A DNA stretch of 64,000 nucleotides from positions 22,872 to 86,871 of the forward strand of contig QPMI01000091.1 in NCBI GenBank assembly GCA_004431415.1, read 5' to 3'. This document shows positions 13,926 through 52,029 of the stretch, piece after piece. The notes beneath the pieces are model-generated. The model worked only from the letters and a program-made list of their open reading frames with translations. It had not been told where the DNA came from and ran no database searches. The DNA comes from Cyanophora paradoxa CCMP329 (Eukaryota > Plantae > Glaucophyta). Made by a program: the position numbers and the translations under genes. Numbering within the stretch: the first letter of the stretch is position 1; every line of letters begins with the position of its first letter.

Positions 13926-15282
13926 CGGGGGGGGGGGGGCGGGGGGGGAGGGCCGAGGGAGGGGCACGCACGGTGAGGCCAGCGTTGGAGTTGGCCTTGC
14001 GGAGGCGCTGGATGGTCTCGCGCACCTCAGCGCGCGTCCGCTCGAGCTCCACGCGCAGCGTCTCCTGGCTGATGACGAGCGCCCCGGAGCCGCCCACGAC
14101 CCTCTGCTGCGCGTAGTCCGACGTCGCTGCGCGGCGCGCGTCAGGCGGCAGCGGCGGCGGGGCGCGGGGCGCGGGGAGCAGAGCGGAGGGGAGGGGAGCG
14201 GACCGACGATGAGCTTGAAGTCGGTGTTCTTGTAGAGGCGGAGGAGCTGGTGGGCCTGCGCCTCGATGAAGCTGTCCGCCGTCTGGCCCTCCTCCGTGTA
14301 CACCACGTGCACGCCCTCCCCGCCCCCCTCCTTGCTCACCGACACGAACCCTGCCGCCCCCGCCTCAGCCCCCCGCCCCCCGCCCCTCGCCCGAGCCAGG
14401 CGCCAGGCGCTGGGGGCAGACCCTGCGCGTACTGGGCGTCGAAAACGACCTGCGCGCGCTTGGTCAACACCCCTTCCAGGCTTCAGAGCACCCGTATCAA
14501 AGTCAGCGGTTGCCGACCTCGACCTTCCAGGAGCGAGCCGAAGCGAAGTCGATTAGCCAGTCGATTAGCAGCTGCCGCGCCTGGGAGGGGGGTGGCCTCA
14601 GTGAGAAGTGGGGCACCGCGCCGGAAGCTCGAGACCGGGCCGGGCGCGCCTGGGCCATCTCCCCTTCCACGGCCAGCTTCCTCAGGTGCTCCCAGGCCCC
14701 AATCTGCCGCCCGGCCCGTCAGCCGCTGAGCTCCGCCGAGCCGCGCCCTCCGAGGCTCGCCGAGGGCAAACGCGGGGCTCTATGGCGAGGCCGAGTGTGA
14801 AGGCCGCCGGGCGCGGCTCACAGTGTTATATCCGTCTACGACCAGGAGCGTGTTGCGCTGGCCCATGTCGACCTGTGCGCGAGTCGGCCGGCACGTCCCG
14901 GGTCCGGCAAACAATTGCGGACCAAAAGGTGCTCGTCCACCTCCGTCTTCCGAGCCTCGACCGCGAAGCCGTGCCGCTTTGGAGGCAGGTTTAGAGGACC
15001 GGACGCGCTCAGCCGCCGCACGAGGCTGCGAGATGCGCGTGACCTACCCGCGCGCACGCGCTCGGGCGCGGCCGGCGCGGCACACCTGAACCTTGCCGTC
15101 CCGCCGAGATACGAGCAGCAGAACCGACGGGCGCCGCGCGTCAGCGCAGGCGCCTCGTTGCCGCGCAGAGCCGCCGACGCCGCCACGCCGCACAACGCGC
15201 CCTGGGCAGCCGACGGTCGGGCGCTCGCCGGGCCGTCGGCGCGCGCCGCCGACGGCAGCGCCGGCCCCGTGAAGCCGAGCAT
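13266..15282 (-). CDS. YacP/Rae1-like NYN-domain ribonuclease with putative plastid transit peptide (spliced; 3' end approximate)
   Basis: LLV(D)GYN motif, VVFDAQY, VHVVYTEEGQTADSFIE, ATSDYAQQRVVGGSGALVIS; Ala/Ser/Arg-rich N-terminus MLGFTGPALPSAAR. Confidence 0.75.
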
Positions 15283-15373
15283 CTTGCCCTCAGCAGTGGC
15301 TTGCGAAGAATCGTGTGCCCCCCCCCCCTGCACAGAGCGCCGAGAGGCTCAGAGCGCCGAGAGCGGCGCCATC

Positions 15374-17100: not shown

Positions 17101-17412
17101 GCCCCGCCCCCACTGCATGCGCACCGGCGCTGTCTCGCACTCGAGCTTCTTGAAATGAAATCAAAACGCGGCCTGGCCTGCTGCGGGGGGGCGGGGCCAG
17201 GAGGGGGGCGGGGCAGACGCGCGGGCGGGGCGCCGGCGACGGCAAGGGAAGGGGTGCGAGAATAGCCGCGGAGTACGAACGGCGGCAGGAGCGGATGGTC
17301 GACAGGCGAGGAAGAGGGCGGGGGCGGGGTATGCGGACGGTGTGGAGTGTCGGAGGGAGGAAGGCGGGAGGGGCGAGAAGAGAGGAGAGGATCGGAGGGG
17401 CCTGTGTGGGGG

Positions 17413-18853
<1,441 letters not shown>

Positions 18854-19068
18854 CGCTCCTCCTAAGTTCGAGCCTTGAGACCTCCAAGGGCGAAGGCCGC
18901 TCAACCCGTCGACAGTGTACCCCCGGGATCAATTTCAGAAAACAATTCAACTGAGCCGCAGAGGCAGCAACGAGAGCGGCGGCAGCGGAGGCAGCGGCAA
19001 CCGGTCGGCGGTGAGGAGGCCGACACCAGAAGCTGCGTTGCGTCGGTGCGCGACCGCGTGGTGGCGGC

Positions 19069-34200: not shown

Positions 34201-35744
34201 TCCGCGAGCGGCTGCGGCGCCTGCGGCCGGCGGGGCGGCGCCCCTCGAGGAGCTCGCGGGGCCCTGCGGCGCCCCCGCCTCCCACCTCCTCCACGCCTTC
34301 CGCGACCCCGCGGCGCCGAGTTCTCCGTGCCGCCCTCCCAGAGGCCACCGCCCCCGCCGGCGCCGCCGCTGAGGGCCGGCGGTCTCGCAGGTGGTGGCGA
34401 TGTGCGCGCGGCAGTTCGCGGCGGCGCGGGCGCTCCTGCACCCCGGGGGCGAGGCGGCATTCCTGCGCTCCCTCGCGGGGAGCGGCCCCTGGCGCGCCCC
34501 CGCCGGCAAGAGCGGCGCCGCCTTCCGCGCCACCGCCGACGGCCGCCTCCTCCTCAAGGCCCTCCCCGCCGTGCGCGAGCCCGCCCGCCCGCCCGCGAGC
34601 CCGCCGGCCCGCCGCCGGCCCCCAACGTTAACGCCCCCGCGCTCAGGCCGAGTCCGACGACGAGGCCCTGGTGCGCTTCGCGGAGGCCTACTTCGCCCGC
34701 CTCCGCTCCGCCGCCGCCGCCGGGTCCGCCCGCGCCCCGCGCACCGCTGGGCCGCCGCGAGCGGGGCGTGGCGGGCGGCAGGAGGCGACGGCGCTGGTGC
34801 CGCTGCTGGGCCTCTTCGAGGTGGCATGGCGCGAGCCGGGCGGGGCCGGGGCCGGGCGGGCGGGCGGGGCGCTACGCGGTGGCGCCGAGCCTGCTGCACG
34901 GGGCCGCCTTCGCGCGCGTGTACGACCTGAAGGGCGTCCCCGGCTGCAGCGCCCGCGCGGGGCGGGACCCCGCGGGGGCCCTCCTCGACGAGGACCTCCG
35001 CCGCGGTGCCTGCCTCTCCCCTCCGGTCCCCTAGGCCTCCGCCCCCGCCCCCTCACCCGCCTCCCGCAGAGGCGCGCGCCGGCTCGGCCTGGGCCCGCTT
35101 CGGGTCGCCGAGGGGACCTGGGGCGCCTGGGGCGGCCCTGCGCGCCGACGCCGCCTTCCTCGCCTCCGCCGGCCTCGTCGACTACAGGCGCGCCCCGAGC
35201 CCCCGCCCCCTCTCCTTCTCGGGCGCCTCACGGGACCCCCAGCCTGGTGGTGTGCGTGGACGAGCGCCGCCGCCGCTACGTCGTCGGCCTCGTCGGTGCC
35301 CCCGCCGCCCCCGCCCCCGCCCCCGCCCTGCCCCGGCCTCCCCGGCTGTGAGCTCGAGCGTCCGGCGGCAGACTACCTCCGCCGCTGGGGCCTCGCCGAG
35401 CGCATCGAGAGCCTCATCAAGACGCCCTTCGCCCCCGTCCGCCCCGCTCCCCCTCGAGATCTAGACTCATTGTTCCGCTCCTCCCCCGCTGACCCGCGGC
35501 GCAGGCGCGGCCGCCGTCGCCGCTGCCGGCGGGCCCCGCGGGGCCGACGGTGGAGGGCGGCCCGACCGTCATCAGCCCGCCCCTCTACGCCGCACGCCTC
35601 CTGCAGGGCGCGCCCCACTCCGTCGCGCCGGGCTTGGGCCCGCTCTGCCCCGCCCGCTCACCTTCCCGCCTCTTCGCAGCTGTCCTGACGCGCTACTTCG
35701 TCGGCGTTCCGTGCACCGAGGGGAACGCAGACCGCGTGTTTTGA
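31262..35744 (+). CDS. FAB1/PIKfyve-type phosphatidylinositol-3-phosphate 5-kinase (divergent, spliced; start uncertain)
   Basis: CCT-like segment VRVKCVRVGG / VLYVSGAPGATCRSILVG; kinase motifs GKSGAAF.AT.DGRLLLK, YDLKG, LLDEDL, D..FLAS.GLVDYSL, DYLRRW, PTVISPPLY. Confidence 0.8.
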
Positions 35745-35894
35745 GTCATCTCTCAAACCTCTTTTGATTTTCGCAATGAACCTCGGATCGGGAACAGCTC
35801 CCCTAGCCTTCCCTCGGGGCCTTCTGGCTTTGGGCCACTTCACAGTTAGTTCCGCTCATGATGAGTTTCATCAGGTGTTCGCATTTGTTCCACG

Positions 35895-36298
35895 AGCTCA
35901 GCACTGCGCCGTGTCTCCAAAAAAATACCCGCGAAAAAATCAAAAACAAATCAGAAAACAAACCATTCCCAGTAACCCAATCTTGAATATCAGTAAATCT
36001 CAGTAAGCCTCAGTAACCAAAATTGAATTAATCGAAGTTATATCATAATCTCGATTAATTATATCTTATCGAAGTTATATCTTTTTTATGCGCCGTGTCT
36101 CCAAAACAATTCCCAAGAAAAACAAACCATTCACAGTAACCCAATTCCAAATCTCACTAAATCTCAGTAAGCCTCAGTAACAAAAATCGAATTAATCGAA
36201 GTTATATCTTAAATCTTATTTATCGAAGTTATATCATAATCTCGATTAATTATATTTAATCGAAGTTATATCCTTTTTATCCGCCGTGTCTCCCATGA
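35895..36298 (+). repeat. Left terminal inverted repeat (404 bp) made of ~185-190-bp tandem units
   Basis: Reverse complement of 47286-47382 plus 49249-49555; units start with CGCCGTGTCTCC at 35907, 36091 and 36282. Confidence 0.95.
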
Positions 36299-36299
36299 T

Positions 36300-37360
36300 T
36301 TAGCGTTTGGTTAAACCACTTCTCAAATTGTATCTTCTCCTTACAACATTACTTCGATTGGGTTTTATGCCTTCCTTTGCTACCAATCGATTCACTTTAT
36401 TCGTTTTATTAACCTGCTGAATTCGTTTTTGTGATGGGATCTTAATGATATCATCTTTATTCACCTTTTGCAATTCTTGTTTCTTAAATCTCCTCTTCAC
36501 TTCTTTTGTTTCCTCACCATCATTATCTTCAAGGACTTTGAAACGATTCCTATCAGCCTTTGCAACAGTGTAGACCTTTTGACTGAATTGCGCACCTTCT
36601 TTTTCAAATAATCCCTTTGGTTGCAAAACTCGAACTGTGTCTCCTGGTTTCACTTGATTAGTATCAGCCTCCTTTACACGATTGTTGTGAACAGTATCCC
36701 TCATGTAAATAAATAACTGTTTATCTTCATTTGTATACACTGCATTCGGTGAGTCATTTTTCAATGCCGAATGGGGACTGCTATTATACAAGTCAATTAC
36801 ATCACTAAGTAGATCGATCCATTTCGTGGTTCCTTTGCTGTCATCGTTTTCCTGAGATATTGTTTGAAAGTCCTAGTGAACCTATCAATTATCCCCAGTT
36901 TATCTCCTACTGTGATGTGGTCATCCTTTGCCACATCTGTGTAAAGCATTACACCATGTTCACTGCACCAATTTCGGTATACTGCCTGGGAAAACTCATT
37001 ATCCCCAGAGAGAGCATTAACTTTGCCTGCATCTTGCTTGAACCTATTTAAAATGTTCGGGATCTCACTGCTGTTTTTAAAAGGATAAACAAATCCTTTG
37101 CGACTAAGTATGTCTACGAAACTGAGCATTTTGAAAATGCCATTGTTGGCAGTCTGAAACCCTCTGAAATATGTTATATCGATTTGAAACGATCTAGGCT
37201 TTGCTACTATGCGAAGAAACGATTTGGGTTTCCTTGGTTTCTTGTAGATTTGCTGGAGTTCTGAATTTTTGAATTTCTTTTTCAACTCTTTCTCATCAAA
37301 ACTCACCTTTTCATTAATAAGTTTCTGCCTATACTTCTTGAATGATAATACACTATCCAT
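36300..37360 (-). CDS. Retroviral-like (rve) integrase; one frameshift near 36830
   Basis: FQID...VDILSRK...GDNEF...IIDRFTRTFK catalytic core; a shifted frame continues KWIDLLSDVIDLYNSSPHS (YN..PHS motif). Confidence 0.92.
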
Positions 37361-40300
37361 TATTGGGCGGCACAGTTACACTTAATATGAGATAGGAAAC
37401 AATTTTTGGTAATATGAGCCACAGCATTATTGATTCGATCTACCGAGATATCTTCGAAGTCCATGGCATTGTAGCATCGCAGGCAATGCCCATACTGCTT
37501 CCCATATCGCTGCTTGATCCAGTCCCATGTGATGTAATCATGCTCATCGAATTGTCTATTTGCTGCTCGGTCCTGATCCTTGTAAGTCGATATCTTCTCG
37601 TTATTCTCTCTCTTCCACACTTTCCAGTGAGCCATTTCGAAATTATCATGGTAAATAACAACATCATCCAGCCTTGTGGTTCGAGTGAGAGCAACATAGA
37701 GCCACTTCTTTGAAACAAATGGCGCCCCAGTTTCAAACACGACTACCCTGTTCCCTTTGCAGCGAATCGTATCACCTTGAACAACATGGCAGGTGTTTGC
37801 ATAAGCCAGGGCGAAATGTTTGACTGCATCCCTGCTGAGAACGATCTCATCTTTCTTGTTGGCAATGTCAGCAATAATGAAACTGTCCTTTGAGAGCTTG
37901 ACAATCTTGTAGACAAATCCATTATGAACTATTTTTCCGCCCTTTGCAATACGAGTCTTTGCAACAACTTTGATGCCGCCAGCATAAATGGAAACATTAT
38001 CCCCGTAGTTCATTTTGTGAAGGGCTAGGTTCACCTCTGCACCCTTGCGGTTTGTGTAAACAATGCCAATATCAGTCTTTTCCAATTCGTCCACAACCTT
38101 GAACCCATACTTTGCAAGGACCTCACTTACACTCAAACCTTTCTCGAATAAATCAATTCGAATTTGCTCAACCTTCCTGCGATCTTCCTCAGTCTCATGT
38201 CGCTTGTTCACTTGGAGTAACAATTCGTTGGGGAACAGGCGATGGAGGATATCGAGGTAATACTCATCTTGGTCAACACTCATATCTTGGATGGGTGGGT
38301 TTTGGTACGGGTCCCCTGTGGCGATGTATACCTTATCTGGGAACTGCTCATTCATGATGTGGTCCAAGGCTGCCAGTTCCCCAATCTTAAACTGACAGAT
38401 CTCATCAATAACAATGCAATCAAATTCTACCAAACCAGAGGCATTTCCTCCTACAATTTCATCCATGTTTGACTCATCAATTTTAAGGTGAAGGGCATCA
38501 TAGATTGTCTTCACATTTTTCAATCCTTGCTCTTTCATTTCTTTCACTCGCTTGTTGGTTGGAACAATGTAGAGGGGATTTCTGAAACGCTTTCCATATT
38601 CAACTGTCATGTGAGTCTTTCCCACTCCCGGAACTGATCCGAGAAGAACCCATCGTTTTTGTGTAGCCAGCAAATCACAAATCGCGGTTGTGTCATACTC
38701 ATCAACCACAGAGTGTTTGGTATAACTGTAGTTCTCGATTTTCACAAAGTCAGTCGCTCTCTCAAACTTTCCGTAACGAATTCGTTTTGCCTCGAGGTCT
38801 TTCTTCTCACCTGAAAACTTTTTAGAAAAATTGGGGCAGCATTTCACACTGAATTTTCCAATATTCTCAAAGGCATTGCGATCGAATGACACTGGGGCAA
38901 TGGTTCATAAGCGATCCCATAAACACAATCGGTGTTCAAAGCGAGTGGTCGGATTTGCTGTTTAGCGAGTTCGACACACTTCTCATACATACACATCCTC
39001 ATAATTGACAAGAGGGTAGTGTACAATGGCATGAAGCCATCAATGAGCTGCTTTTCTGCTACCTGATTGACATAGTAGATATGGGTTCGGTCATCTCTTC
39101 CTCACACAGAACGAACTCTGTCTCCTCATAAGTGGCAAGAGTCTCACCAAAGAGGTAAATCTTAACCTCCCCTCCGTTCTGTTTCTGGAACTCGATCGCA
39201 TCGTCTCTGTTGTGGAAAATGGTGGTTTTCACTCTGCTATTTCGTTGCTTTCCAGTTTGCCCAATCGCACTCACTAAGATCTGCTTCTTATCAACAGGAT
39301 CGAGGTCGCTATCTAAGATTCGAGCAACTGTGTTGCCTGCAAGGTTGGGAATGAGTTTGTAAGGTCGCAGAACCGCTTTGATGGAGATGTCATCCTTGAA
39401 ATCCTCGAAATGCTTTTTGAGAACCAAACCAGGAACGACATTGTACTTGGAATCAATGATCATCCTCTTGTATCTGTTGTAGGTGTTTGCTTCGTACTCC
39501 TTTCCGTTCTTGTCTTTGGCTTTGAAAAAGTATTTGTCGTCCAGTTTCACGTAATAGAAGCTGTATTCCTCGATTTGCTCTGCATCTGTGATTGTCACAC
39601 TCTTGAAGACATCGAACTTGCTGAGAACAGGAACGAATTTGATCATCAAGGCTACAATGTAAGGGTATGCTTTGCACATATCGAACTCGTAAATATCTGT
39701 GTTATAGCGAATTTCATCAAAGGTCTCCTCATCCACATCAAAGAGACCACGAAGGCAGTCTGCACTCCATTCTTGAATGCATTTATGGTTTGCTCATTGT
39801 AAGTACTCTTGTTGGAAGTGTTGATTAGAGACCTATACATATCCAGATTTAGTTTCTCGAATTTATCTCTGTACTCAGCATTCTTGAAGCTAATCTCGAA
39901 AGCTGTTTCTACATCTGTATCGTTACCAGGTGGGGTCACGACAACATCCTTATCGTCAATAGTGAAACGAATATGGGTTGCCTTTCCGATTTGGGAGAAC
40001 CCAGGTTGGACCTGATAATTATGCACCACAATGAACTCTCTGAGTAGCTCATCCAGTGAACCACCATAGCAGATTCGAATGCTCGATTGGTTCTTTGGAT
40101 TGTCAGACCTGACAATTCTCAGAATGTCATCGGGATTTGTGGCAAACTCCTTGAACCTTCTTTGCTTTATAATCTTGTAACGAGAACTGAGTGGAACATT
40201 GGTATCTTTTGGCTTGGAGCCATTGAAGGACTGTGTGAGAGCCTTAATATTGTGATTTAACAAATACATGTGACCATTCTCAATCTTCACATATGCAACA

Positions 40301-41440
40301 GAAGGGTCAAGTGTGTGTTCCTGGTCTTGGGCAGGAAAGTCAGTTCAGGGACAGGGGTCCTGTCGTCCTTTCCAATTGTAACCATGCCTAGGCGCAGTGG
40401 GTCAAGAACCTTCTCCGAAATGGACTTGAAAGAAATGCCCCAATCATCTCCTTCAACAGGGTCTCGCCCATTCACCATCTTAAACAGTCCGTTGTAAGAC
40501 CAATCGATGCGCTTGTATTTCCCTTTGGTCTTAGCCTTCTCAAATGCTCCTCCAAACCATTTGATGAGGACATCAAAGACACACTTCCCAACCTTGAATG
40601 AGTCACCTTTTAAGAACATTTCCTTGAATGTGGTGGCTTGGGGTTCCCTTCGTTTTAATGAAATTCGAAATAATCATGGGAGCGTTTGTATTGTCTCTGA
40701 GAACTTGTTCATTTCTTGGGATGTATTCTTCATTATCTGTCGTGATGACTCTTTCAATTGTCATAATATCGGGGTAGGTATCTTGCTCAATTAGTTTTAG
40801 GTAGCGGAAATCTTGATTGGTCGAGTTAAACTCGATGACTGCTGCAATAAATTCAGCAATGACGGTCCCTCAACACATGGAACGTATTGAACGTGGATTG
40901 AACCAGACCAAGAGCATTCAGAAAAGCTGCCTTGGTACACTGGATACCAAAGGGGCGATTGTTCCGAAGCCTCTTCGATTCGATGTAGGTCACACCATTC
41001 TCAGTGACCCTGTTCGCGTTTGCGGGAGCCTGTTCTCCCTCTTGCAACTCACGGAAGAGTCTCACATTCAGAGTGACCATGTTTCCAGGTGAGTTTTCAA
41101 CAAACTCACGAAGGTTAGCCATCAATTGCTGGAAAGGAGTCAAGCGCTTCCGCTCTCTCGCTTGCTCCGCTTTCTTGTTTTGCTTCTCAACATTCTTAGC
41201 GGCTCTCTCAGCCCTCTTCTCCTTCTTCTCTTGCTTGCGATACAAACGAGGCTCTACGATACCTCTCAGTGTATCTCTGATATCAATCAACTTTGGAATT
41301 CTAATTGCTTTGAAAGTAAATTCTCTCAAGAAATAGATATCCTGCTCTCGGGTCAATTTGTCTTCTACTTTTGCTTGCATGTAGTAACCAAGAATCTCAT
41401 CCTGTAAATTCTTCGAAATTCGATTACTTGGTCGAGGCAT
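37360..41440 (-). CDS. Replication polyprotein: putative terminal protein, OTU-like protease, divergent family-B DNA polymerase, SF1 helicase, HNH/Zn domain (~1360 aa, about 6 frameshifts)
   Basis: Abutting ORFs join through 1-nt shifts (~40870, 40650, 40290, 39740, 39085, 38895); GKCVFD...NGHMY; PolB motifs FDMCKAYP, K...VSAIG, NTDC; SF1 motifs GVGKT, IDE, GDPYQ, AYANTCHVVQG, YVALTR; C..C...SVDRINN..H..N..H..CN. Confidence 0.8.
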
Positions 41441-42028
41441 TTCTTTGTTCACTCTATTAATATATACCTACAAAAGTTTTCTTTAAATACTTTTATACTC
41501 GCGTCAAATTTTACCGGCAAAACCAAAAGTCTCCAACAAATATATTTAGTCGAGGGCATTTATAAAAATAACGAAGGGTTGGCTCGATCATCGAACTCTA
41601 AAAATAACAGAATGATTTTATTTGTGGTTCCAGCGCGGTTCCCACGGGTTTCTCAGAGCAGATCGCGCTGAGAAAAACGATTAACAGAGATATTTCGATT
41701 TGCGACCACGGTTAGAATACGGGACACCATAGAGATACTTCACAAAGCAGACTGCATTGGAAGCATAGAGACGCTGGGAACTCTCAACGATTCTCATGGC
41801 TCTGTAACACTCATCAGTATGGTATAAATCACGCATTTGCTTTGCGAATTTCGCATTATACTTTTTTAAATATTCCTGACCTTTTTCACTTTTACGATAA
41901 CGATAAGTAGCACGCTTCTGAGCCTCACTGATTGGCATTTTGTCTTTTTCTACTCTCTTAATATATGTTAAGAAATCTTTAAGTAGTTTTTCTGTCTGTA
42001 TATAGCGAATAAACTCCTGTCAAATTTT
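41440..42028 (-). promoter_or_regulatory. Two copies of a shared putative viral promoter (AAAATTTGA ... YTTAAAG ... ATATATTAA.AGAGT ... ATG)
   Basis: Upstream of the ATGs at 41440 and 41938; TCAAATTTT on + strand at 41504-41512 and 42020-42028; a related third copy at 47271-47279. Confidence 0.65.
41681..41938 (-). CDS. Small basic viral protein (85 aa), possible DNA-binding protein
   Basis: Intact ORF starting MPISEAQKRATYRYRK; shares its upstream motif with the polymerase gene. Confidence 0.7.
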   Translation of the reverse strand: MPISEAQKRATYRYRKSEKGQEYLKKYNAKFAKQMRDLYHTDECYRAMRIVESSQRLYASNAVCFVKYLYGVPYSNRGRKSKYLC

Positions 42029-42082
42029 GGTCCCGATTGCAGAGCATCCAGTACGAAAGAAGATGCTGGAAAAATGATAAAG

Positions 42083-42141
42083 CTACCGATACCCAGAAGG
42101 TTCACTTGTCGGCTGCAAGTTTCTACCACTGAACCCGGTAG
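42083..42141 (-). ncRNA. Candidate tRNA-like structured RNA (mini-cloverleaf) in a viral intergenic region
   Basis: CTACCG/CGGTAG closing stem, GGTTCAGTGGTAGAA D-arm, ACTTG-cagccga-CAAGT arm, ACC-TTCTG-GGT arm, T-run shortly downstream. Confidence 0.35.
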
Positions 42142-42287
42142 AACAGGTGATTAAAGTGATTTACCTATGGATATTTCACTTCGCTCTACAACGCCTCCAT
42201 AAAAATGAAGAAGTTTTGAGCCTACGGGATAGGATTGGTTACGTAGCGCTAACAATGTTCAAGATTTTTTAAATTCGGAAATGATCC

Positions 42288-43048
42288 TTAACGGCGATAT
42301 CCAGGTCTGATCCCGAGCTTGGCAAACCCTGAGACCATTGGAGCAGCATTTGGAATCGAGTTGACTGGATCAGCCTGCGAAGTGGCAACCCGAAGGATCG
42401 ATTTATTGAGGACCGGCAAATCCGTTTTGTTGGAGTCTTGGTAATCGATTGTCTTTGCAATCAATTCGGTTGGTGATTCTTTTACAACTTGAACAGGTTC
42501 AGGGATGACTTCATGGGTTACTTCTGGTTTCTTCTCAACCTTCTCCTTTGTGATTGGCTGTTCCTTGATCTTGTTTTCGTTTTTGGTCTCTGCTGCAATG
42601 CCATCAACAAGACTTTTAGCATACTGATATGTCACAGATTTCAGTCCGCCAGTGGTTGAACGAATAAAGTAGCGGTTGCGATGGTCTTTCTCGGAATAGG
42701 TTGAGTAGAGCCTCTCGCCACCATCAAGCAGTTTCAGCAGTGTCGATGATGAGGCAACCTTATCCTTTGTGGATGATTTGAACTGCCCTTTCTTGATTCC
42801 TCGTTTGGCTCCGGGCATGCGGTTCAATGGGACTTGGTCAACCAGGGCATTATCATCGTTGCTGTTTTTCGTAGTGGCTTGGGTGAATTGGTTTCGTTCT
42901 TTATGGACTTCTTTATCGAGGTCACCAGTTCCGTATGCAGCGATTCCCTTCGATTTCTTATACCAGTTCCTTCCAGTCTCACCATTGCCAACATCCGCTT
43001 CAGCGGCTGGTTTGGACAAGAAATTCTTGGCTGAGTCTTGCGAGCCAT
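42288..43048 (-). CDS. Lys-rich viral protein of unknown function (~250 aa; probable frameshift just after the ATG at 43048)
   Basis: 243-aa ORF 42288..43019 with no nearby in-frame ATG; the ATG at 43048 is in an adjacent frame; lies downstream of the penton gene. Confidence 0.7.
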
Positions 43049-43084
43049 TTGTAATATCGAGACAAATTTATTCTACAGTATTTC

Positions 43085-43971
43085 CTATGACCGTGAGAAC
43101 GGCAGGTAGAGTCCCTCCAACTCTTTTATGACATTCTTCAATGCTTTCTTCGTCAGATCTTTATCATCTTCAGTAATCAGTTCAAGAGTCATCGACCAGT
43201 CGGTAGTAATGTCTGCTGTGGCTCCGTTCCAGTAAGAAAGTCTCACATCTAGAGTCTCAACCTCAACCAAGCCATTCTGCTCGTGAACGATCATGGAATT
43301 ATTCGATGAATCATATTTTAATAGACTGCCAACCGTTTGGTCAATCTCAATTTTTGCAATAGCATTGTTATCTCGTTTGTTATTGCTCACATATCTTCCT
43401 TTCAGTGGATCAACATGAAGAAGCAAATAGGAATTAAATAGGAGATCTAATGGCATTTCACTATCAATGTAGTGAGCATAAGTAAAGGCTCCAACTGTGA
43501 CATTAGATGATAGAGGACTCGATTGATAAAGTGTGTTTGCATTTTCAAAACCGCAGAAATTGGCTAAGAGTTGAGTGTTCATAGTGATTGAGAATGGAAC
43601 CTCGCACATAAACCTTAGAAGCAATGTTGTGGATCATAGGTTACATAGAAATGGCGAGTGTAAGTTCCGCCACCCGCTTGATTATAGGGCTGGGATCCAA
43701 TGCGAGCGATCAGATAATTCACCAGTGAATCGGGTGTATATGCACCTCGGAGGACTTCGTTGTTTCTATTCTTTGGGTTCCCAGCATTATCGAGTGTTTG
43801 AGTGGTGAGGGTTCCTACTTCAGAGAGGTTGTAAAGATTGTGAAACATCTCAAAGTTCGTTACTCGACAGGCTCTGACCTTTTGGATCGCATAAGGGAGT
43901 CTGTATGTGAAATTAGTTGGGGTTCCATCCGATCGGTCCCTGGAATCAATATTGAGATAGTAACGCGTCAT
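43085..43971 (-). CDS. Minor capsid protein (penton); one frameshift near 43620
   Basis: N-terminal YLNIDSRDRS..PTNFTYRLP and C-terminal LDVRLSYWNG..DITTDWSMTLEL, typical of PLV/NCLDV pentons; divergent from the major capsid gene. Confidence 0.85.
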
Positions 43972-44023
43972 TCTGTTTAATAAAGCATTTTAAAAATTTC
44001 TTTTGGTATTTTAAACATAAGAG

Positions 44024-45250
44024 ATGGCACTCACTGGAACTACCCTTAAGGAATTACTCGTAACTCCCGGTTCCGATCAAATTTATCTGTCCCCTGGTCT
44101 CCAGATTGGAACCAACCCCAAATACAAACCATTCCTCGAGCAAGTTCGTCCCCGAGGCAATACTTTTGGCTTTAAGAATACCGCTTACTTTGATCTACCT
44201 CGCAAGCAACTCCTTGCTGGTGTTTCGCTCTATTTCAAGATTGCCACTGGTGGTGGTGTAGCCTGCACCCTCCCCAATGGTGGTTCTTCCTATATTAATG
44301 AGGTCCGCTTCGTTCATGGTGGTTTCAAGTATATCATCCCTGGTGACTGGATCACTGTAAACGCCCTGATCGATAATGATCACGCTACCATGGGCAGTAT
44401 GTTTGCTTCTCTCGGTTACTTCAAAGAACTTGATCGTGAAAGCACAGATGAGGCTATGGAATACATTGTTAAAATCCCCGCTGCTTTCTGGGATGATGCT
44501 TACTTCCCACTATGCACACTGGCGGATATGCCAACAATTGAGGTGGATTTCCGTGATGCTGCAATTGTCCAGGTTCCCGCCGGTGGATCTGTTACCTTTG
44601 CGGATTGCTCTCTGATCTGCCAATTCGTTAACATCGCTTCGGCTGAGGCTGAGACACTCTTGAAGATGGCGAACGAACAAGGTGGCATTCGCATTCCGAT
44701 CACAGAGGTCATCCACAAGAAGACCCGAGCGCTCAAAACCGCTGATGCTGGTGAATCGGTTGAGGTGACACTCGCTAATGTTTCCGGTCTGGTTCATTCG
44801 ATTCTTATGACTGTTCGAGAGGTGAACAAACTGAACACCTACACTCATTCTGATTTCTGTGGTCATGTTTCGGATGTTAAGATTGATCAGTTCCAGATCT
44901 TCCACAACAATCGCTCCCTCGATATCTCCAACAAACCCATTTCCGGTTTCCTCTCGGCAATGAATCACATTCCATCCCATTATAAGGGCGTTTCAGTTGG
45001 CAATACCACCTATGGATTCGAGTCTGGAAATGTTTACGGAATTGTTCTATCCAAATCCGGAAAGGATTCACTCCACAACTCGGTTATGGGTTACCAGGAT
45101 TTCTTCAACAGCAGTTCGAGTTACATGGATCTCACTGTTTCCGGATGCACTGATGCCGCTCCTGTTCAGGTTGATATCTATGCCCTCCGACACAATGTTA
45201 TGGTACTCAATGGCTACAACATCTCTACCCTGAAAGTCTCGAACTTCTAA
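44024..45250 (+). CDS. Major capsid protein (double jelly-roll)
   Basis: Intact 408-aa beta-rich ORF with F.LPR..L....LYF, INEVRF..GG, IPAAFW...FPL..L...IEVDF; lies between penton and ATPase genes. Confidence 0.85.
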   Translation: MALTGTTLKELLVTPGSDQIYLSPGLQIGTNPKYKPFLEQVRPRGNTFGFKNTAYFDLPRKQLLAGVSLYFKIATGGGVACTLPNGGSSYINEVRFVHGGFKYIIPGDWITVNALIDNDHATMGSMFASLGYFKELDRESTDEAMEYIVKIPAAFWDDAYFPLCTLADMPTIEVDFRDAAIVQVPAGGSVTFADCSLICQFVNIASAEAETLLKMANEQGGIRIPITEVIHKKTRALKTADAGESVEVTLANVSGLVHSILMTVREVNKLNTYTHSDFCGHVSDVKIDQFQIFHNNRSLDISNKPISGFLSAMNHIPSHYKGVSVGNTTYGFESGNVYGIVLSKSGKDSLHNSVMGYQDFFNSSSSYMDLTVSGCTDAAPVQVDIYALRHNVMVLNGYNISTLKVSNF

Positions 45251-45305
45251 GCGCGGTTTCGCCCGCGCGCAACGACCGAAGGAAGTAGATTCTTTTCTTC
45301 CGTTA
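45251..45305 (+). terminator. Hairpin(s) immediately after the capsid stop codon
   Basis: GCGCGG-tttcgc-CCGCGC directly after TAA, followed by GGAAG...CTTCC. Confidence 0.4.
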
Positions 45306-45367
45306 GAGTAGGAAGCGCAATTATTTGCAGGTGTGTACTTTATTTTGTTTTTTATCTTATTACTGTA

Positions 45368-46126
45368 ATGGATAACACAGTAAATCTTGATGATATTCCG
45401 GAGTTCGATCCAAGTAAGACAGTTCGAATCCCGACGAGAATTTTGAATGTTGGTCGCTCCAATACAGGTAAGACAATGTTCACAAAATACTTACTTTACG
45501 AGCTTCGTGACAAGATCGATCAGATCGTTATATTTAGTTCAACAGCTTTTACTGGGCAATTTAATGACATCACCCATCCCGAAAACATCTATGAGGAGTG
45601 GGATGATAACATTGTTTTGAGATTGATCAGTATGCAAAAGAAACGAATCGAGAACAATGAGAAACGCAATAATCTAGTAATTATACTTGATGATATGATA
45701 GGTTCAAATTTGGATATGCATAATTCGGCTGTTTTATCTAAATTGGTCACGAGTGGAAGACATTATGCAATTTCTGTAATATTTAATGTTCAGCGTTTAT
45801 GTTCGATTTCAACTACGATTCGTAGAAATGTTGAGTTTGTAGTATTTTTCAATATACTCGGAAATGAGAAAGAGTTTAATTGCGCTTTTGATGAGTACAA
45901 TGGTGGAATGGATAAAAAGACCTACAAGGAATTGCATCGGTTGTGGGGTTATAATTACCAAACTGTCATAGCTAGCCTGCAAGGTTACGATATCAAGACC
46001 TATACTGATCGAGCAGTACTAACAGATGATGATATAAAGGGTTTTAAGAAGTTTGTGAAGAGAAAAGCAATTAAAAGGGGTCAGATGGCTCGGATTCAGC
46101 GAGAAATGACCACAATCAGTGTTTGA
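45368..46126 (+). CDS. A32/FtsK-like genome packaging ATPase
   Basis: Walker A GRSNTGKT, Walker B LVIILDD, and GRHYAISVIFNVQ...IRRN A32 signature. Confidence 0.95.
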   Translation: MDNTVNLDDIPEFDPSKTVRIPTRILNVGRSNTGKTMFTKYLLYELRDKIDQIVIFSSTAFTGQFNDITHPENIYEEWDDNIVLRLISMQKKRIENNEKRNNLVIILDDMIGSNLDMHNSAVLSKLVTSGRHYAISVIFNVQRLCSISTTIRRNVEFVVFFNILGNEKEFNCAFDEYNGGMDKKTYKELHRLWGYNYQTVIASLQGYDIKTYTDRAVLTDDDIKGFKKFVKRKAIKRGQMARIQREMTTISV

Positions 46127-46370
46127 AAAGTCGATTTCTGAAGAATATTGTATGGTAAGGTAGCTTGAAATACTAAGGAGATAGCATAGTTGCGAAGAGC
46201 TTAAACAGCGCTTCAAACCGATATGCAGAACGTTGCGAGATCATAATCTGGTGATGAGATACAAGCGTTTGAAGATGCCGATAATCGATTTACCGAAACT
46301 TCGGTGAAACGTGAGCGAAACTTGAACCGTGAGATCATATACCCTACTATGGTTTATTCCCCGGGTTTTC

Positions 46371-46454
46371 ATGGCGCATTTAATGGCGCATTTAATGGCG
46401 CATTTAATGGCGCATTTTATGGCGCATTTTATGGCGCATTTTATGGCGCATTTG
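46371..46454. repeat. Seven-copy 12-bp tandem array ATGGCGCATTT(A/T/G)
   Basis: 3 x ATGGCGCATTTA, 3 x ATGGCGCATTTT, 1 x ATGGCGCATTTG. Confidence 0.95.
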
Positions 46455-46516
46455 ATGAAAAGTCCCTACTCTGTGGCATGAACCAATCAGAAGCCAGCAA
46501 ATTTAAAATTAATATA

Positions 46517-46624
46517 TGAGGTATTATCTGAGATATAATCTGAGGTATTATCTGAGATATAATCTGAGGTATTATCTGAGGTATTATCTGATCGAGATGT
46601 TATCTGAGATGTGATCTGTGATGT
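46517..46624. repeat. Second 12-bp tandem array TGAGGTATTATC/TGAGATATAATC
   Basis: Six clean units at 46517-46588, then degenerate units. Confidence 0.9.
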
Positions 46625-47037
46625 AAACCTGGGGAGAAGTTGAAGGGGATACATTGAAAGTCAGTGAGCCAATCAGATTGCGTCACACATATATACATAT
46701 ACATCATGACAATATACACATCGCCGTGATCGTCATAATCTCCCGAGTCACGTGGTATGTCATATATATCATATACATATACATCGTCATCATGACGTCA
46801 TATATATATATCACATATACACAAATCGATATGTCATAGCTATGACCATAAATCGATTTTCTATGATATATATCGTATATACTATATTGATATAGTGACG
46901 TATATACGATTAAAAAGCAATTACAATTCTATTGTTTTTATTGTCTTTTCTATCGTTGTTTCTAGTGTAAAAAATACAGTAAAAAACCGTTCAAAAAATA
47001 CAGTAAAAAATAAGAGGTTTTAAATTGTTACTGAGGC

Positions 47038-47223
47038 TTACTGAGATTTTACGTTTTGTTTTGTGTGGTTACTGTGAATGGTTTGTTTTTTATTTGTTAC
47101 TGGCTTGTGTTTCTCACAATAAACTTGATACATTTCCCTCTCATCATTAAAGAAATCATGGACTTCCCATACTGTGTGACATCCACATTCCTTAACATCT
47201 CTTTGGCGCTTTTCCCAAGCCAT
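47038..47223 (-). CDS. Small (61 aa) viral protein with CxCH...CxxH putative Zn ligands
   Basis: MAWEKRQRDVKECGCHTVW...YCEKHKP...KSQ*; preceded by the AAAATTTGA/CTTAAA/ATATA motif. Confidence 0.6.
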   Translation of the reverse strand: MAWEKRQRDVKECGCHTVWEVHDFFNDEREMYQVYCEKHKPVTNKKQTIHSNHTKQNVKSQ

Positions 47224-47285
47224 TGGTATATGTTTGTGTTTAATAACTTTTAAGCATGTTAAAAAAGCAATCAAATTTTTGTAAT

Positions 47286-49555
47286 TCATGGGAGACACGG
47301 CGGATAAAAAGGATATAACTTCGATTAAATATAATTAATCGAGATTATGATATAACTTCGATAAATAAGATTTAAGATATAACCACGGAGCACGCCGGGA
47401 GCGTAGAGTAGGGCGCGCGGGATAGCGGCGACCGGTGGGCCCCCGCAGAGACTCCGCAGCGTGTCCGAAAACCTCCCCAAGCCGCCACGCCTCCCAGGGA
47501 GCAAGCGTATCGGTTCTCGCATTCCGCGCGCCAGCAGTCGCTGCCGGCCTTCAGCCCTAGTCGCAGGTAGCTCAGTGTGCGATCGAACAGCCGTCCAGCC
47601 GGCCCCGCTCGCCCGATCGGGAGCGCGGCCCGATCGGGAGCGCGGCCCTCGCGTACGCGAACTGGGCAAGGGTCGCCAACCGCGGCCACCAGGACGCTAT
47701 CCCCTCGCTCTTAACTGCTCTTCATAGGCACCGATGCTCTGCGCTCCGTCGATCACGGGCTCGGGCTCACGCTTTCCACTCGGCAGCTTCGTGCACGCGG
47801 GCGCGCGCAGGCGTACGCGAGGGCGATCATCGACACCGGGCTTCGATACCGCCAGGGAGCCGCCTGCGCTGCCCCCGCGCGCTGCCCCACCGCCCCGTGG
47901 CACAGCCGCCCTGTCCGCACTAGCTATAGCACTTCAGCCAGATCTAGCGACCGCGGCGCCGGCCGCCGCTTAGAGACTGGAGACGTCGCTTAGGCCCTCA
48001 GCGCGCAGCCGAGTACGCCCTCATAGCTGCACGACTGCATCGATATCGTTACTTTTAAGCCATGAATACCGCTCGCCGTCCCATGTCTGCGCATGCGACG
48101 ACGTGGCCTGCCCCGACGGCGCTCGGCCTGCCCTCGCGGGGCGCTGTGCAAATGCCGTCCCGGGCGGCCCGTCGAGCGGCCAGGAAGAGACATGGCGCCT
48201 TTTAGTTTTGCTGCACTGGCAGCGTGCCTGCGCCACCGTTTCTCGCTTTTCCGCCGGCGCCGGGCCGCCATGGCGCGCGCGCGCCTCACTCTCCGCGCCC
48301 CAGGCCTCAGGTTCTTGCTCCATTGATCCACCCCCGCCCCCGCCCCGCCCCCGCCCCCGGCCCCTGTCGCCCGGCCCTCCCTGCCAGGCGGCGACCCGGG
48401 CTCTGGTCCACCTCCTCTCGGGCCCTGCGAATGCGGCGACCCCCCCCCCCTCCCCGGCATGTCCGTGGCCACGGCCGCGGCCCCCGCCCTCCTGACCCTC
48501 CCGATCCCCGCGCCCGCGGTGTGCGGCAGCGCGACCCGTGGCCGCGCCGGCGGCGGCCACGGGGTGGGCCTCCCACCTTGACGACGGCGAACACTAGCAG
48601 AGACGGCCCCTGCGGCCGGGCGTCCTCATTTCCTTTTTGTATTCGGGCCTTCCCCTCCCTTCCTCCGTTCCGTTCCGTTCCTCAGCTAGCTATAGCGCCG
48701 CTAGCAGTACCTATTATGTAGAGCCCCATCGAAGTTTTAGATGAGCACGTCGACTACAAACTCATGTACATAGCCGTAGGGACCAGCCAGTGCTTATTTT
48801 CGGTCGATGTCCCACCTCGCCTCAACGACCACTAGTCTTTCCAGACGCCGCTCTAGCATTCCGGAGACGAGCACCTGGCGCCCGTTAGGGGCGTCAGCTC
48901 TACGTATACTCGCCGCGTGGCGGACTAGGCTCGCGGGGCGGCCCCTGGCTGCCCTGACGCACCAGCCCTCTAGAGGGCGTCCCATGCCCCGACGGGTCCG
49001 GTCCGGCACGCTCTTGTATATGCATACCTCGTAGATCTCCGACATCGCCTCAGTTCATGATCATGATCATCCGTGCAATCGGTTTTCCACATCGGCTTCT
49101 AGCACTACCACTTGTACATATACCTCTTCATAGTGGCCCCGCGCCCCCGCTGTCCGGGGCGGGCGCCAGTAGAGTAGCACGCCTCGGTCACGTAGATAGA
49201 GGTGTGCTTGAATAACGCAAACGACCCCGGCGGGGTCCCCTCCTGGAACTTCGATTAATTCGATTTTTGTTACTGAGGCTTACTGAGATTTAGTGAGATT
49301 TGGAATTGGGTTACTGTGAATGGTTTGTTTTTCTTGGGAATTGTTTTGGAGACACGGCGCATAAAAAAGATATAACTTCGATAAGATATAATTAATCGAG
49401 ATTATGATATAACTTCGATTAATTCAATTTTGGTTACTGAGGCTTACTGAGATTTACTGATATTCAAGATTGGGTTACTGGGAATGGTTTGTTTTCTGAT
49501 TTGTTTTTGATTTTTTCGCGGGTATTTTTTTGGAGACACGGCGCAGTGCTGAGCT
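47286..49555 (-). repeat. Right terminal inverted repeat, split by a nested insertion (47286-47382 and 49249-49555)
   Basis: 97 + 307 = 404 bp, matching the left TIR by eye. Confidence 0.95.
47383..49246. mobile_element. Nested GC-rich non-autonomous insertion (1864 bp) in the right TIR
   Basis: Absent from the left TIR; flanked by a duplicated AA (or AAC); ends CCACGGAG...CTCCTGG; subterminal hairpin GACCCC-ggc-GGGGTC; no recognisable transposase. Confidence 0.88.
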
Positions 49556-49771
49556 TCCACGTGCACGCAGAACAACGGCTGCAGCTGCGCTACGAGGCTA
49601 TACAGTATGTGTACATGTGTGTACAGCCGTAACCTGCTATCCTTGCCCATTCAGAGCCTGGTTCATACTATGAGACTATGGCAGACTAGACTAGTTTTGA
49701 TTTACACTAATAACACGCAGTAGCCTCGCCCCCCTCCCCTACCGTCGTACCCCCTTTCCATCTGCTCTGTG

Positions 49772-50382
49772 CTATTCTGGACCTGTGCTGTTCGAAGCTT
49801 CGTGTGCCGAACTTTGCCCGTCGCGCCCCTCGGCGAGGGCGTCGTCCTGCACCAGCGGCTGCTGCTGCTGCTGCTGCGGGGCCCCCGCGGACGCCTCCGC
49901 CGCCACCCGCGCCCGCGTCCGCTTCCGCGAGCCGGCGACCTTCCCCTCCCAGGTCGCGGGGCCGCCGGCGGCGTCGGGGGGAAAGGCCTGCGGGGCGGGG
50001 CTGGGGCGGGGCGGCGGGCGGGGCGGGCTCGGGAGGCCGAGGGCGCGGGCGGCCTGGAGGGGCCCGAGGTCGGCGACGAGGGCGGGGTCGGCCCCCGCGG
50101 CGAGGAGGCCCTCCACCGCCCGCCCCTCCTCGAACGCCAGCACCTCCTCCTCCGTCGCCGCCCCCGCCGCCCGCCACAGCGCCGTCTCCACCGCGCGCCG
50201 CCACCGCTCCCGCGCGGCGCAGTGGCGCTGGAAGGAGGGCGGCCCCTCGAAGCGCGCCAGCTCCTGCTGCCGCCTCCGGTTCCGCTCCGGCACCGCCATC
50301 GCCACCGCCACCGGCACCGGCACCGGCGACGGCAGCTCCGGCGGCGGGGGCGGGCCTCGGCCTCGTCCTCGGCCTCGGGCGG

Positions 50383-50414
<32 letters not shown>

Positions 50415-52018
50415 GGGCCTCCTGGGCGCGCGCGAGGCGGCGCAGCTGGGTGGGGCGTCGGGGCGGGGGGCGGGGGCGCGGGGGGGTGGCGGCGGGGGCG
50501 CGCCTCGGCGAAGTCGAGGATGGCGTCCAGGTGGGGCACCACCGTGCCCCCCTCCACGCTCTCCGCCCACGGCAGGCCCTCCTTCCCCACCCGCGCCACC
50601 GCCTGCCCCACGCACCGCCCCTCAGCCTTCGCTGCCGGCGGGCAGGAGCGGGCGGGGGCGGGGCGCCTGTCGCAGCTCGTAGTAGCGGTCGCCGACGGCG
50701 CGCGGGGAGATGCCGCCCAGCGCGACGCAGACCTGCCGACCCGGCTCGCTCTCCGCTCTTCGCGGGGCGGGGCGCAGGGGAGCGGGGCGGTGCGGGGCGC
50801 CTTGGCGATGATCTGCTTGCGTTGAGGGACGGTAAGGGTCAGGCGGGGACCCTCCGGGGCGGCGGAGGCGGCGCTCCCCGCCTCGCGCCACTCCTCCTCG
50901 TCCGTCTCCGCCGCCTGGCCCGCCTCCCCCGCCCCCGTCGCCGCCTCGGCCCCCGCCTCCGCCGCCAGGACGCGCCCCGCCGCCCGCGGGTTGTTCTCCA
51001 GCGCCAGCGCGATGGCCGCCCCGCAGACGAGCTGCGGCCGCCGCCCGTCCTGCACCCACATCTCCTGTGCGCCCGTTAGCGACGGGAGGCGGGCGGGGAG
51101 GCGCGCCGGGGGCACAATCGCGTGCCTTCGCAATCTCGAGGATGCGTATCGTCTGCTGCAGGACCCTGCTTCTCCTCCCTGCCGTGGCGGCGGCGCCTCA
51201 GAGAGGGGCGCGGGGGTGCGAGCGGGGCGGGGCCGGAGACCCAGGACGAGGCCCAAGTTCGAGCACGTGCGCTCGACGTAGACCACGGGCTCGTGGGCCG
51301 GCACCACGAGTTTGAACTCCTGCTGCACCGCCCCGCACATGCGGAACAAGGAGAAGACCAGCATGCCGGCCGCGTCCTGTGCCGCCGGCGGCAGGTGAGC
51401 GGGCACGCGCGCAGCGACGGCGGGCGACGCACGGCGACGTCCATGCAGGAGACGGGCGTCTCGTTCTGCCGGCATACGATGTACGTGCTGGCGGCGGCCA
51501 TGTAGTTGACCAGGCGCCGCCTCGACCAGCTGTCGCCGCAGTGAGCGCAGGAGCGCAGGCCGTTGCGAAGAAAACGTAAGCGCAAGAACACCTGGAGTCT
51601 ATGATGCGCCGCATCAGGCTGCACGCCTCCCCTTTGATGCGCCGCGAGACCCCAAGGATCGACCCTAGCTGATCTACGCGCTTTAAAGCGGCTTTCTGCG
51701 AAAGATAAGACACAGGTATCTAGTGGCAGGACGTAGAGAGCGCACCACACGCCAAGCCTGGCGCTCACACTCCGAGTGAACCCCCGGCCCGCTGAGCCGG
51801 GCACCGCGTAGGCCGCCGTTCACGTCGTTGTTCCGCACGACGGTGCCGACGCGGTTGAACTTGTCGTCAGGGCCGTTCGCTCTTTCCTTCTTGGTGAACT
51901 CGAGGCTGGCGTGCAGGACGCCCTCCTCCACGACGAGGCCGCAGCTCGAACACACACGTTCGTTCGCCTCCTGCACAATCTCGTCGTTGCAATCTGGACA
52001 TCGGTCGACCCGGGCCAT
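49772..52018 (-). CDS. TFIIB-related factor (BRF-type, TFIIIB subunit; spliced; 3' end approximate)
   Basis: Zn ribbon CPDC...VCSSCGLVVEE, cyclin-fold AAASTYIVCRQ, and WVQDGRRPQLVCGAAI (cf. BRF GRRP..LCGA). Confidence 0.8.
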
Positions 52019-52029
52019 CTCAAGCTAAG

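What the first reader, a model, noticed from the sequence alone, without database searches (positions are those of the whole stretch)
35889..49561. Complete, compact (~11.8 kb) endogenous Polinton-like virus, recently integrated between two convergent host genes
Seen: perfect 6-bp TSD (TCCACG), AG...CT ends, 404-bp TIRs that look identical, a sharp drop in GC, and integrase, polymerase, penton, capsid and packaging ATPase genes. No separate adenain-type maturation protease gene is recognisable. It sits in the short gap between the 3' ends of FAB1 and the BRF-like gene. Known: these ends and this gene set define Polintons/PLVs, which are usually larger. Inference: a young, possibly reactivatable provirus with a minimal gene set in a probable glaucophyte host.
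Basis: partly seen in the sequence, partly recalled or inferred. Interest (0 to 1): 0.85.

Follow-up and report, generated by a model that had tools for sequence, protein, structure and literature searches.

The report
Compact Tlr1-like virus integrated in protist
A small DNA virus of the already known Tlr1-like polinton kind, whose capsid protein is predicted to fold like giant-virus capsids, sits integrated just behind a host gene as one of likely tens of copies; it is unusually short (11.8 kb), its frameshifts are likely assembly errors, and a second insertion splits one of its ends.

Summary
The element is real: 35895-49555, TSD TCCACG, AG...CT ends, GC 0.41 against about 0.7. Two corrections. 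The right TIR is split by a 1,863-bp GC-rich repeat; only without it are the TIRs 404/404 identical and the element 11,795 bp. As written, the integrase, replicase, penton and one more gene are frameshifted; short-read contigs of three DNA runs carry one extra base at each break, all in homopolymers, so these are likely assembly errors. The 408-aa protein models as a double jelly-roll (Z 28 to PBCV-1 capsid). The 'polymerase' is a 1,362-aa vOTU-palm-SF1 helicase-HNH fusion. With RVE integrase, penton, A32 ATPase and no recognisable adenain, this is the published Tlr1-type PLV gene set, so the missing protease is normal. Depth suggests tens of copies, and their differences are mostly synonymous (51 of 63). 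The insertion lies in a host gene's transcribed 3' UTR. Unusual points: size below the quoted 14-40 kb PLV range, a capsid with only five plausible relatives found, and very deep contigs of a diverged sister element in three probable RNA runs. Host likely glaucophyte, not shown. Verdict: new member of a known kind.

The parts
35889..35894 (+). Left target-site duplication TCCACG
35895..36298 (+). Left TIR, 404 bp, begins AG; built of about 2.2 internal repeats of 164-191 bp
36300..37360 (-). RVE-type integrase, 353 aa when read through with X at one break (36831); acidic triad D-D-D by eye (third residue D where E is usual, recalled)
   Evidence: Pfam rve E 0.0036, below the curated cut-off
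37360..41440 (-). Tlr1-type replicase (pPolB-S1H): N-terminal domain, vOTU (C and H kept), palm motifs A, B, C (NTD), SF1B helicase, HNH; 1,362 aa with X at 8 breaks
41457..41486 (-). Shared upstream motif TTAAAGA-N(10-15)-TATATTAA before the replicase start; candidate promoter, picked after the fact
41681..41938 (-). 85-aa basic ORF, no family; the same upstream motif lies at 41958-41982
42288..43048 (-). 253-aa ORF with one break (43028), no family; possibly a core or cement protein (guess)
   Evidence: no hit
43085..43971 (-). Likely penton (minor capsid protein), 295 aa with one break (43630)
   Evidence: N-terminal LNIDSRDR motif recalled from PLV/NCLDV pentons; no library hit
44024..45250 (+). 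Major capsid protein, 408 aa, intact, predicted double jelly-roll
45368..46126 (+). A32-type packaging ATPase, 252 aa, intact
   Evidence: Pfam Pox_A32 E 3.2e-15
46355..46633 (+). Two arrays of 12-bp tandem repeats in a 900-bp non-coding stretch that other copies partly lack
   Evidence: joints such as 46304 to 46712
47038..47289 (-). 83-aa ORF with Cys/His pairs, its ATG at the inner end of the right TIR; no family
47286..47383 (-). Inner 98 bp of the right TIR
47384..49246 (.). Secondary insertion, 1,863 bp, GC 0.68, flanked by AAC/AAC, no recognisable coding or RNA family; itself repeated (about 5 times host depth) with other flanks; likely a non-autonomous host transposon, class unresolved
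49247..49555 (-). Outer 309 bp of the right TIR, ends CT
49556..49561 (+). Right target-site duplication TCCACG
35680..35894 (+). Last exon and 3' UTR of the PIP5K/FAB1-like host gene (stop TGA 35742-35744); a spliced contig continues from here to 36003, 109 nt into the TIR
   Evidence: (X18 record 1, joint 35606 to 35679)
49772..52024 (-). TFIIB/BRF-like host gene, stop TAG 49772-49774

Best explanation
This is an integrated polinton-like virus with the Tlr1-type gene set, bounded by terminal inverted repeats and a 6-bp target duplication, likely inserted by its own retroviral-type integrase and likely still coding-intact. Shown: ends, TSD, gene order, replicase motifs, A32 ATPase, a double jelly-roll capsid model, related copies that differ mostly at synonymous sites. 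Inferred from the family (PMC11161782, PMC5499653): the excised or free form would be a linear dsDNA; the single replicase would prime on its own N-terminal domain, release it with the vOTU protease, and copy by strand displacement using the palm and SF1 helicase; the ATPase would pump DNA into a capsid of MCP and penton without a maturation protease; the integrase would join the AG...CT ends to host DNA with a 6-bp stagger. This copy landed in a host 3' UTR, appears fixed in the sampled cultures, and later received a host transposon in its right TIR. It is probably near-silent apart from low-level RNA at its left end. I favour spread through particles over purely intragenomic copying; dependence on a giant-virus helper is about even odds.
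For: TSD and ends; TIRs 404/404. MCP model pLDDT 64, pTM 0.71 from a 6-sequence alignment; Foldseek E 1e-16 to PBCV-1 capsid; VIA Z 28.4, rmsd 2.8 over 325 residues, against Z 15-16 for Sputnik and mavirus. vOTU Cys and His, polymerase motifs A, B and xTD, Walker A/B and SF1 motifs align in the window and 5-6 of 6 relatives; the HNH D-R-x-H motif in 5 of 6. All 12 indel rows shown (of 27) are one extra base in all three DNA runs, each in a homopolymer run; N at those places gives ORFs of 1,362, 353, 295 and 253 aa, while 300 random placements gave at most 580. Single-copy host flanks show the same error type: 7 gaps and 0 substitutions in 292 bp (X2 record 9), 3 gaps and 0 substitutions (X5 record 22). 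51 of 63 scored coding substitutions are synonymous against 27% expected, none makes a stop. Element-to-flank contig depth 15-47 in four DNA runs. Host-side contigs run 28-30 nt into the TIR at both ends without a difference, and one probable RNA contig 109 nt.
Against: The deep contigs that carry the extra bases belong to the majority variant, 41 substitutions in 1,681 bp from this copy, so they do not prove this copy intact; the six X18 pieces identical to it cross no break. DNA junction contigs hold only 28-30 element bases, under the tool's 31-base rule. No listed contig bridges the insert-TIR joints (tables cut). The integrase scores below Pfam's cut-off and has D at the third acidic position; the last HNH cysteine pair reads HxxC. 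The penton is unscored. Depth is not a copy count and GC bias inflates it. No particles, free DNA or enzyme activity were tested.
Confidence: 0.82

Rival explanations
1. This copy is a decayed provirus: the frameshifts are real, and with the TIR insertion it is dead, while other copies are intact.
For: The intact reading comes from the majority variant, not this copy. The TIR has been hit by another element. Fragmented fusion genes were read as pseudogenisation in Oxyrrhis (PMC12721341, section 15).
Against: 12 of 12 shown indels are single-base losses in homopolymers, with no stop codon and 404/404 TIR identity; host flanks show the same losses. PMC10120064 describes artificial fragmentation of such multi-copy elements in long-read assemblies. 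An X18 contig identical to this copy leaves 7 letters unlaid just at the integrase break, which is suggestive only.
Confidence: 0.12
2. The family multiplies only inside the genome, as a self-synthesising transposon; capsid genes are passengers.
For: Tens of copies by depth, similar to about 30 for Tlr1 (PMC5499653); no close relative in viral or metagenome contigs; the same replicase runs a capsid-less linear element (L001).
Against: MCP and ATPase differences between copies are mostly synonymous (13 of 18 and 8 of 10), and a sister about 80% identical in ATPase DNA keeps the same peptides; selection on packaging genes argues that particles are made.
Confidence: 0.2
3. The element is a contaminant or a misassembly joined to host DNA.
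For: Large GC step; no listed contig spans the whole stretch.
Against: Perfect TSD; junction contigs in runs of 2012, 2019 and 2024; a spliced host transcript contig runs into the TIR.
Confidence: 0.02

Closest known systems
Tlr1 of Tetrahymena thermophila and PLVs with 'Tlr1-like helicase' (pPolB-S1H), e.g. PLV-Bnat (PMC5499653, PMC11161782)
   Same: MCP, minor capsid, A32 ATPase, RVE integrase, no maturation protease, one 1,000-1,400-aa replicase with vOTU, palm lacking the first Asp of motif C, SF1B helicase; TIRs; about 30 copies for Tlr1. C-terminal HNH as described for the PLV form.
   Different: Tlr1 ends its replicase in GIY-YIG, this one in HNH. Only 8 ORFs in 11.8 kb, below the 14-40 kb quoted for PLVs (PMC12220804 abstract). 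MCP has no sequence hit to any Pfam, PHROG or NCBIfam family.
Endogenous PLVs and 'pMVRE group 2' elements catalogued in Cyanophora paradoxa (PMC12220804, PMC13215967)
   Same: TIR-bounded elements with truncated pPolB, many of group 2 fused to SF1 helicase; 12 rows for this species in the supplement. The only named MCP relative found here (P0008, 23% identity) is a Cyanophora protein.
   Different: The 2 of 12 rows seen span about 25 and 18 kb; whether this family or its size class is among the other 10 is open.
Canonical Polintons/Mavericks (Polintoviricetes)
   Same: RVE integrase, 6-bp TSD, AG...CT ends (recalled), TIRs, capsid genes, ATPase.
   Different: No recognisable Ulp1/adenain gene; the polymerase is a palm-helicase fusion with NTD instead of DTD.
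Virophages (mavirus, Sputnik)
   Same: Small integrating dsDNA virus; mavirus also has RVE and a truncated pPolB.
   Different: Capsid model ranks with NCLDV-type capsids (Z 22-28) well above virophage capsids (Z 15-16); no recognisable protease.
Transpovirons
   Same: pPolB-S1H replicase, linear with TIRs.
   Different: Transpovirons lack capsid genes; this element has them and an integrase.

Membership tests
Tlr1-type polinton-like virus | [quoted passage not shown] | tested here: met
   Z 28.4, rmsd 2.8, 325 aligned to PBCV-1 capsid
Tlr1-type polinton-like virus | [quoted passage not shown] | tested here: inconclusive
   295-aa gene next to MCP with recalled penton motifs; no hit; not folded
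Tlr1-type polinton-like virus | A32/FtsK-type packaging ATPase | tested here: met
   Pox_A32 E 3.2e-15
Tlr1-type polinton-like virus | pPolB-S1H fusion: vOTU, palm motifs A/B/xTD, SF1B helicase, C-terminal nuclease | tested here: met
   motif alignment with 6 relatives; RecD2 E 3.9e-11; read through with X at 8 breaks
Tlr1-type polinton-like virus | RVE integrase with short TSD | tested here: met
   rve E 0.0036, below cut-off; 6-bp TSD; activity untested
Tlr1-type polinton-like virus | No Ulp1/adenain maturation protease | tested here: inconclusive
   none scored; three ORFs (253, 85, 83 aa) remain unassigned
Tlr1-type polinton-like virus | Terminal inverted repeats | tested here: met
   404/404 after removing the insertion
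Tlr1-type polinton-like virus | Placement with Tlr1/PLV-Bnat in MCP or ATPase trees | not testable with these tools
   no reference PLV protein set was available; searches returned only unnamed relatives and one Cyanophora protein
Tlr1-type polinton-like virus | Forms virions | not testable with these tools
   needs particles
Canonical Polinton (Polintoviricetes) | Stand-alone pPolB with DTD motif C | tested here: not met
   motif C is NTD and the gene continues into a helicase and HNH
Canonical Polinton (Polintoviricetes) | Ulp1-family protease gene | tested here: inconclusive
   none recognised
Virophage (Maveriviricetes) | Virophage-type MCP | tested here: not met
   Sputnik and mavirus capsids Z 15-16 against 28 for PBCV-1; the ICTV profile itself was not available
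Transpoviron | No virion genes | tested here: not met
   MCP and ATPase present

The most novel reading that the evidence does not exclude
The smallest complete Tlr1-type virus, with a capsid from a barely sampled lineage, is alive in laboratory cultures of a glaucophyte: most copies are silent, but a low-copy sister is heavily transcribed or replicating without a known helper virus, giving the first culturable system in which pPolB-S1H replication and virion formation could be tested.
Probability: 0.2. Interest if true: 0.75.

Novelty: new member of a known kind. Interest (0 to 1): 0.42.

Why it matters
Whether the pPolB-S1H fusion is an active polymerase was argued both ways (inactive in PMC5499653, active in PMC11161782), and I saw no experiment in the passages read. 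An 8-gene, 11.8-kb element with all motifs kept, tens of copies under purifying selection and a sister with deep contigs in probable RNA runs would be a tidy system for that question and for whether such elements make particles or need a giant-virus helper. It also shows how long-read homopolymer errors make intact proviruses look decayed, and gives a case of a provirus sitting inside a host 3' UTR.

Tried and rejected
No whole genome was held, so copies could not be counted directly. MCP searches that found nothing: word-indexed protein search, viral contigs, phages, PDB by sequence, Pfam (one sub-threshold unrelated hit), PHROGs and NCBIfam. A profile of six sequences returned only P0008 and one PDB row, the EhV-201 capsid at E 0.63. 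Of 7 representative hits I dropped 2 from the alignment: P0010 (jacalin repeats) and P0012 (5,280 aa, short repeated match, not examined). Single-sequence folding failed, pLDDT 30. ATPase in viral contigs, helicase in metagenome contigs and P0013, P0011 in viral contigs gave no loci. The ESM Atlas gave no answer in 7 tries. No holder was on record as RNA; four probable RNA runs of 2019-2020 held next to none of the words, which is no evidence either way, and X18 had no cover over 38411-44095, likewise uninformative. An alternative genetic code or introns were rejected for the broken genes: the breaks are frame changes without in-frame stops. For the insertion: no Pfam or Rfam hit; its 3' hairpin folds no better than shuffles, z -0.09; Replitron, Helitron and CACTA were considered from the ends only, and Replitrons were not detected in glaucophytes (PMC10288648, passages), so the class is left open. 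Two literature searches for the TTAAAG upstream motif found 0 papers. No empty-site joint was looked for directly, because no call held both flanks; the unbranched junction contigs only suggest fixation. The intron-based host guess was not confirmed in print.
Full report
Boundaries. The sequence reads TCCACG, then AG at 35895, and ends CT at 49555 followed by TCCACG. Two random flank 6-mers would agree once in about 1,000. GC is 0.407 inside against 0.731 and 0.682 in the flanks. The inverted repeat is perfect for 309 bp and then resumes 1.86 kb further in. The gap, 47384-49246, is a GC 0.68 stretch flanked by AAC on both sides; without it and one AAC the TIRs are identical at 404 of 404 positions and the element is 11,795 bp instead of 13,661.

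Genes as written. The MCP (408 aa) and the ATPase (252 aa, Pox_A32 E 3.2e-15) are open. The minus-strand block is in pieces: seven overlapping frames from 41440 to 37360, two for the integrase, two for the penton, two for a 253-aa gene.

Are the breaks real? Laying contigs of public runs on 35000-46340 showed 12 of 27 indel rows; all 12 are one extra base in all three DNA runs. Each lies in a homopolymer run, 10 of 12 G or C. An N at each gives frames of 1,362, 353, 295 and 253 aa; 300 random placements reached at most 580. Single-copy host flanks show gaps without substitutions too (7 in 292 bp; 3). The limit: those deep contigs are the majority variant, 41 substitutions in 1,681 bp away from this copy, and the six X18 pieces that match this copy exactly cross no break. 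Intactness of this copy is therefore inferred (about 85%), not shown. PMC10120064 (passages) describes the same artefact.

Capsid. Sequence libraries did not recognise it. The unindexed search gave 7 hits among 1.84 billion representatives; 5 are full-length relatives at 22-28% identity and 2 were dropped. One of the five is a Cyanophora paradoxa protein. With these the model reached pLDDT 64, pTM 0.71 and matched PBCV-1, faustovirus and iridovirus capsids (Foldseek E 1e-16; VIA Z 28.4, rmsd 2.8, 325 aligned), with Sputnik and mavirus at Z 15-16. It is a double jelly-roll of the non-virophage type.

Replicase. Six long relatives were found. Read with X at the breaks, the protein aligns with them at a vOTU cysteine and histidine, polymerase motifs A (D588 region), B and C, where C is NTD as in the relatives' xTD, then Walker A and B, SF1 motifs III, V, VI and a terminal HNH. 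This is the TP-vOTU-PALM-S1H design of PMC11161782 (passages) with the HNH tail that PMC5499653 (parts 1-3 of 5) gives for PLVs. That paper lists Tlr1 as MCP, minor capsid, ATPase, RVE integrase and this helicase, without protease, at about 30 copies. The element matches that list gene for gene, so neither the gene set nor the missing adenain is new. The N-terminal priming domain and the absence of an exonuclease domain were not tested here.

Family. Single-contig depth over the element is 15-47 times the host flank in four DNA runs; GC bias inflates this and depth is not a count, but tens of copies are likely. I scored the 63 distinct coding substitutions with DNA support among the 80 rows shown (745 rows exist; non-coding, duplicate and RNA-only rows left out): 51 are synonymous against 27% expected and none is a stop. 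The rows shown are the best supported, not a random sample. The family diverged under selection, including on MCP and ATPase.

Junctions and age. Host-side contigs continue 28-30 nt into the TIR without a difference at the left end in X2, X3 (2012) and X7, and at the right end in X5 and X7. That is just short of the tool's bridging rule but is what a junction into a repeat looks like, and the lack of a branch at the TSD suggests no common empty allele. An X18 contig skips a 72-bp GC-AG intron and runs, with no difference, from the last exon through the junction to 36003. So X18 holds spliced RNA and the virus sits within the transcribed 3' UTR of the PIP5K-like gene, 150 bp after its stop; the TFIIB-like gene stops 216 bp beyond the other end.

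RNA hint. In X18 this copy appears only as contigs of depth 2-9 over 36336-38042, like the host exon (8). Contigs of a diverged sister reach depth 948-4,245 in X18 and 6,400-19,300 over MCP and ATPase in X19 and X20; their loose ends translate to near-identical integrase, MCP and ATPase peptides. The same sister joint is in X3 at depth 75, about three times its host flank. Contig depth cannot measure expression, the RNA label is a guess, DNA may be present, and the three runs may be one campaign, so this is a lead only. Capsid transcripts in cultures are already reported for other protists (PMC12220804, section 14).

Insertion. About five times host depth, with other flanks in the loose ends; no Pfam or Rfam match. 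It separates the 83-aa ORF's start from the outer TIR repeats but leaves the terminal 309 bp whole, so ends needed for priming and integration would remain. No listed contig bridges its joints in this copy.

Host. Not established. High GC, GC-AG introns and the Cyanophora capsid relative fit a glaucophyte. In C. paradoxa repeats and viral genes are CpG-methylated and silent and giant-virus insertions exist (PMC12344493, passages), which would fit silence and offer a possible helper.

Prior description. Glaucophyte PLVs are in PMC12220804 (passages, sections 6 and 14, three supplement rows) and PMC13215967 (passages, section 7, supplement search: 12 complete group 2 rows for C. paradoxa, 2 seen, about 25 and 18 kb). 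PMC8502044 (abstract, passages) notes related contigs in that alga. A search for Cyanophora with Polinton returned 5 papers, none devoted to this family by title or abstract start. Also seen: PMC12721341 (abstract, section 15), bioRxiv 2026.10.13.758929, PMC9952930, PMC10288648, PMC11296320, PMC10639083 (passages; bioRxiv supplements not seen). I did not establish that it is the smallest PLV; it lies below the 14-40 kb of one abstract and the 15-30 kb of PMC10120064.

Verdict. A real, clean, compact Tlr1-type provirus; new member of a known kind. Interest 0.42, raised by its size, its isolated capsid lineage and the sister-element lead.

Noticed in passing
runs X18, X19, X20 laid on window 36300-46000: Very deep contigs of a diverged sister element (same gene order at replicase-integrase and MCP-ATPase, about 80% DNA identity in ATPase, conserved peptides) in three probable RNA runs of 2024; possibly an active provirus or free virus.
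   Followed up: partly
window 47384-49246: Unclassified 1.86-kb non-coding repeat with a 3-bp AAC duplication, weak GGAG...CTCC ends and a terminal hairpin; several copies, other flanks AT-rich; its right part has contigs of depth 50-190 in X19 and X20.
   Followed up: partly
window 35608-36003: A spliced host transcript contig (GC-AG intron) runs into the viral TIR; read-through would be antisense to the integrase and replicase.
   Followed up: partly
window 41457-41486 and 41958-41982, minus strand: The same two-block motif lies before the replicase and the 85-aa ORF and nowhere else in the window; chosen after the fact, so the shuffle controls overstate it.
   Followed up: partly
L001:1-17505: A linear 17.5-kb element with perfect 127-bp TIRs and the same vOTU-palm-helicase-HNH replicase, a second 1,476-aa helicase-like ORF and no capsid, ATPase or integrase recognisable by eye: a large transpoviron-like element.
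   Followed up: no
P0008: A Cyanophora paradoxa gene model without annotation is a distant capsid relative (23% identity), pointing to a second, far-diverged PLV family there.
   Followed up: no
window 47025-47098: A degenerate extra copy of the TIR's internal repeat lies just beyond the stop of the 83-aa ORF.
   Followed up: no
window 34440-35430 and 49985-50253: Host exons also carry single-base losses against short-read contigs, so host gene models in this window are likely frameshifted by assembly error too.
   Followed up: partly
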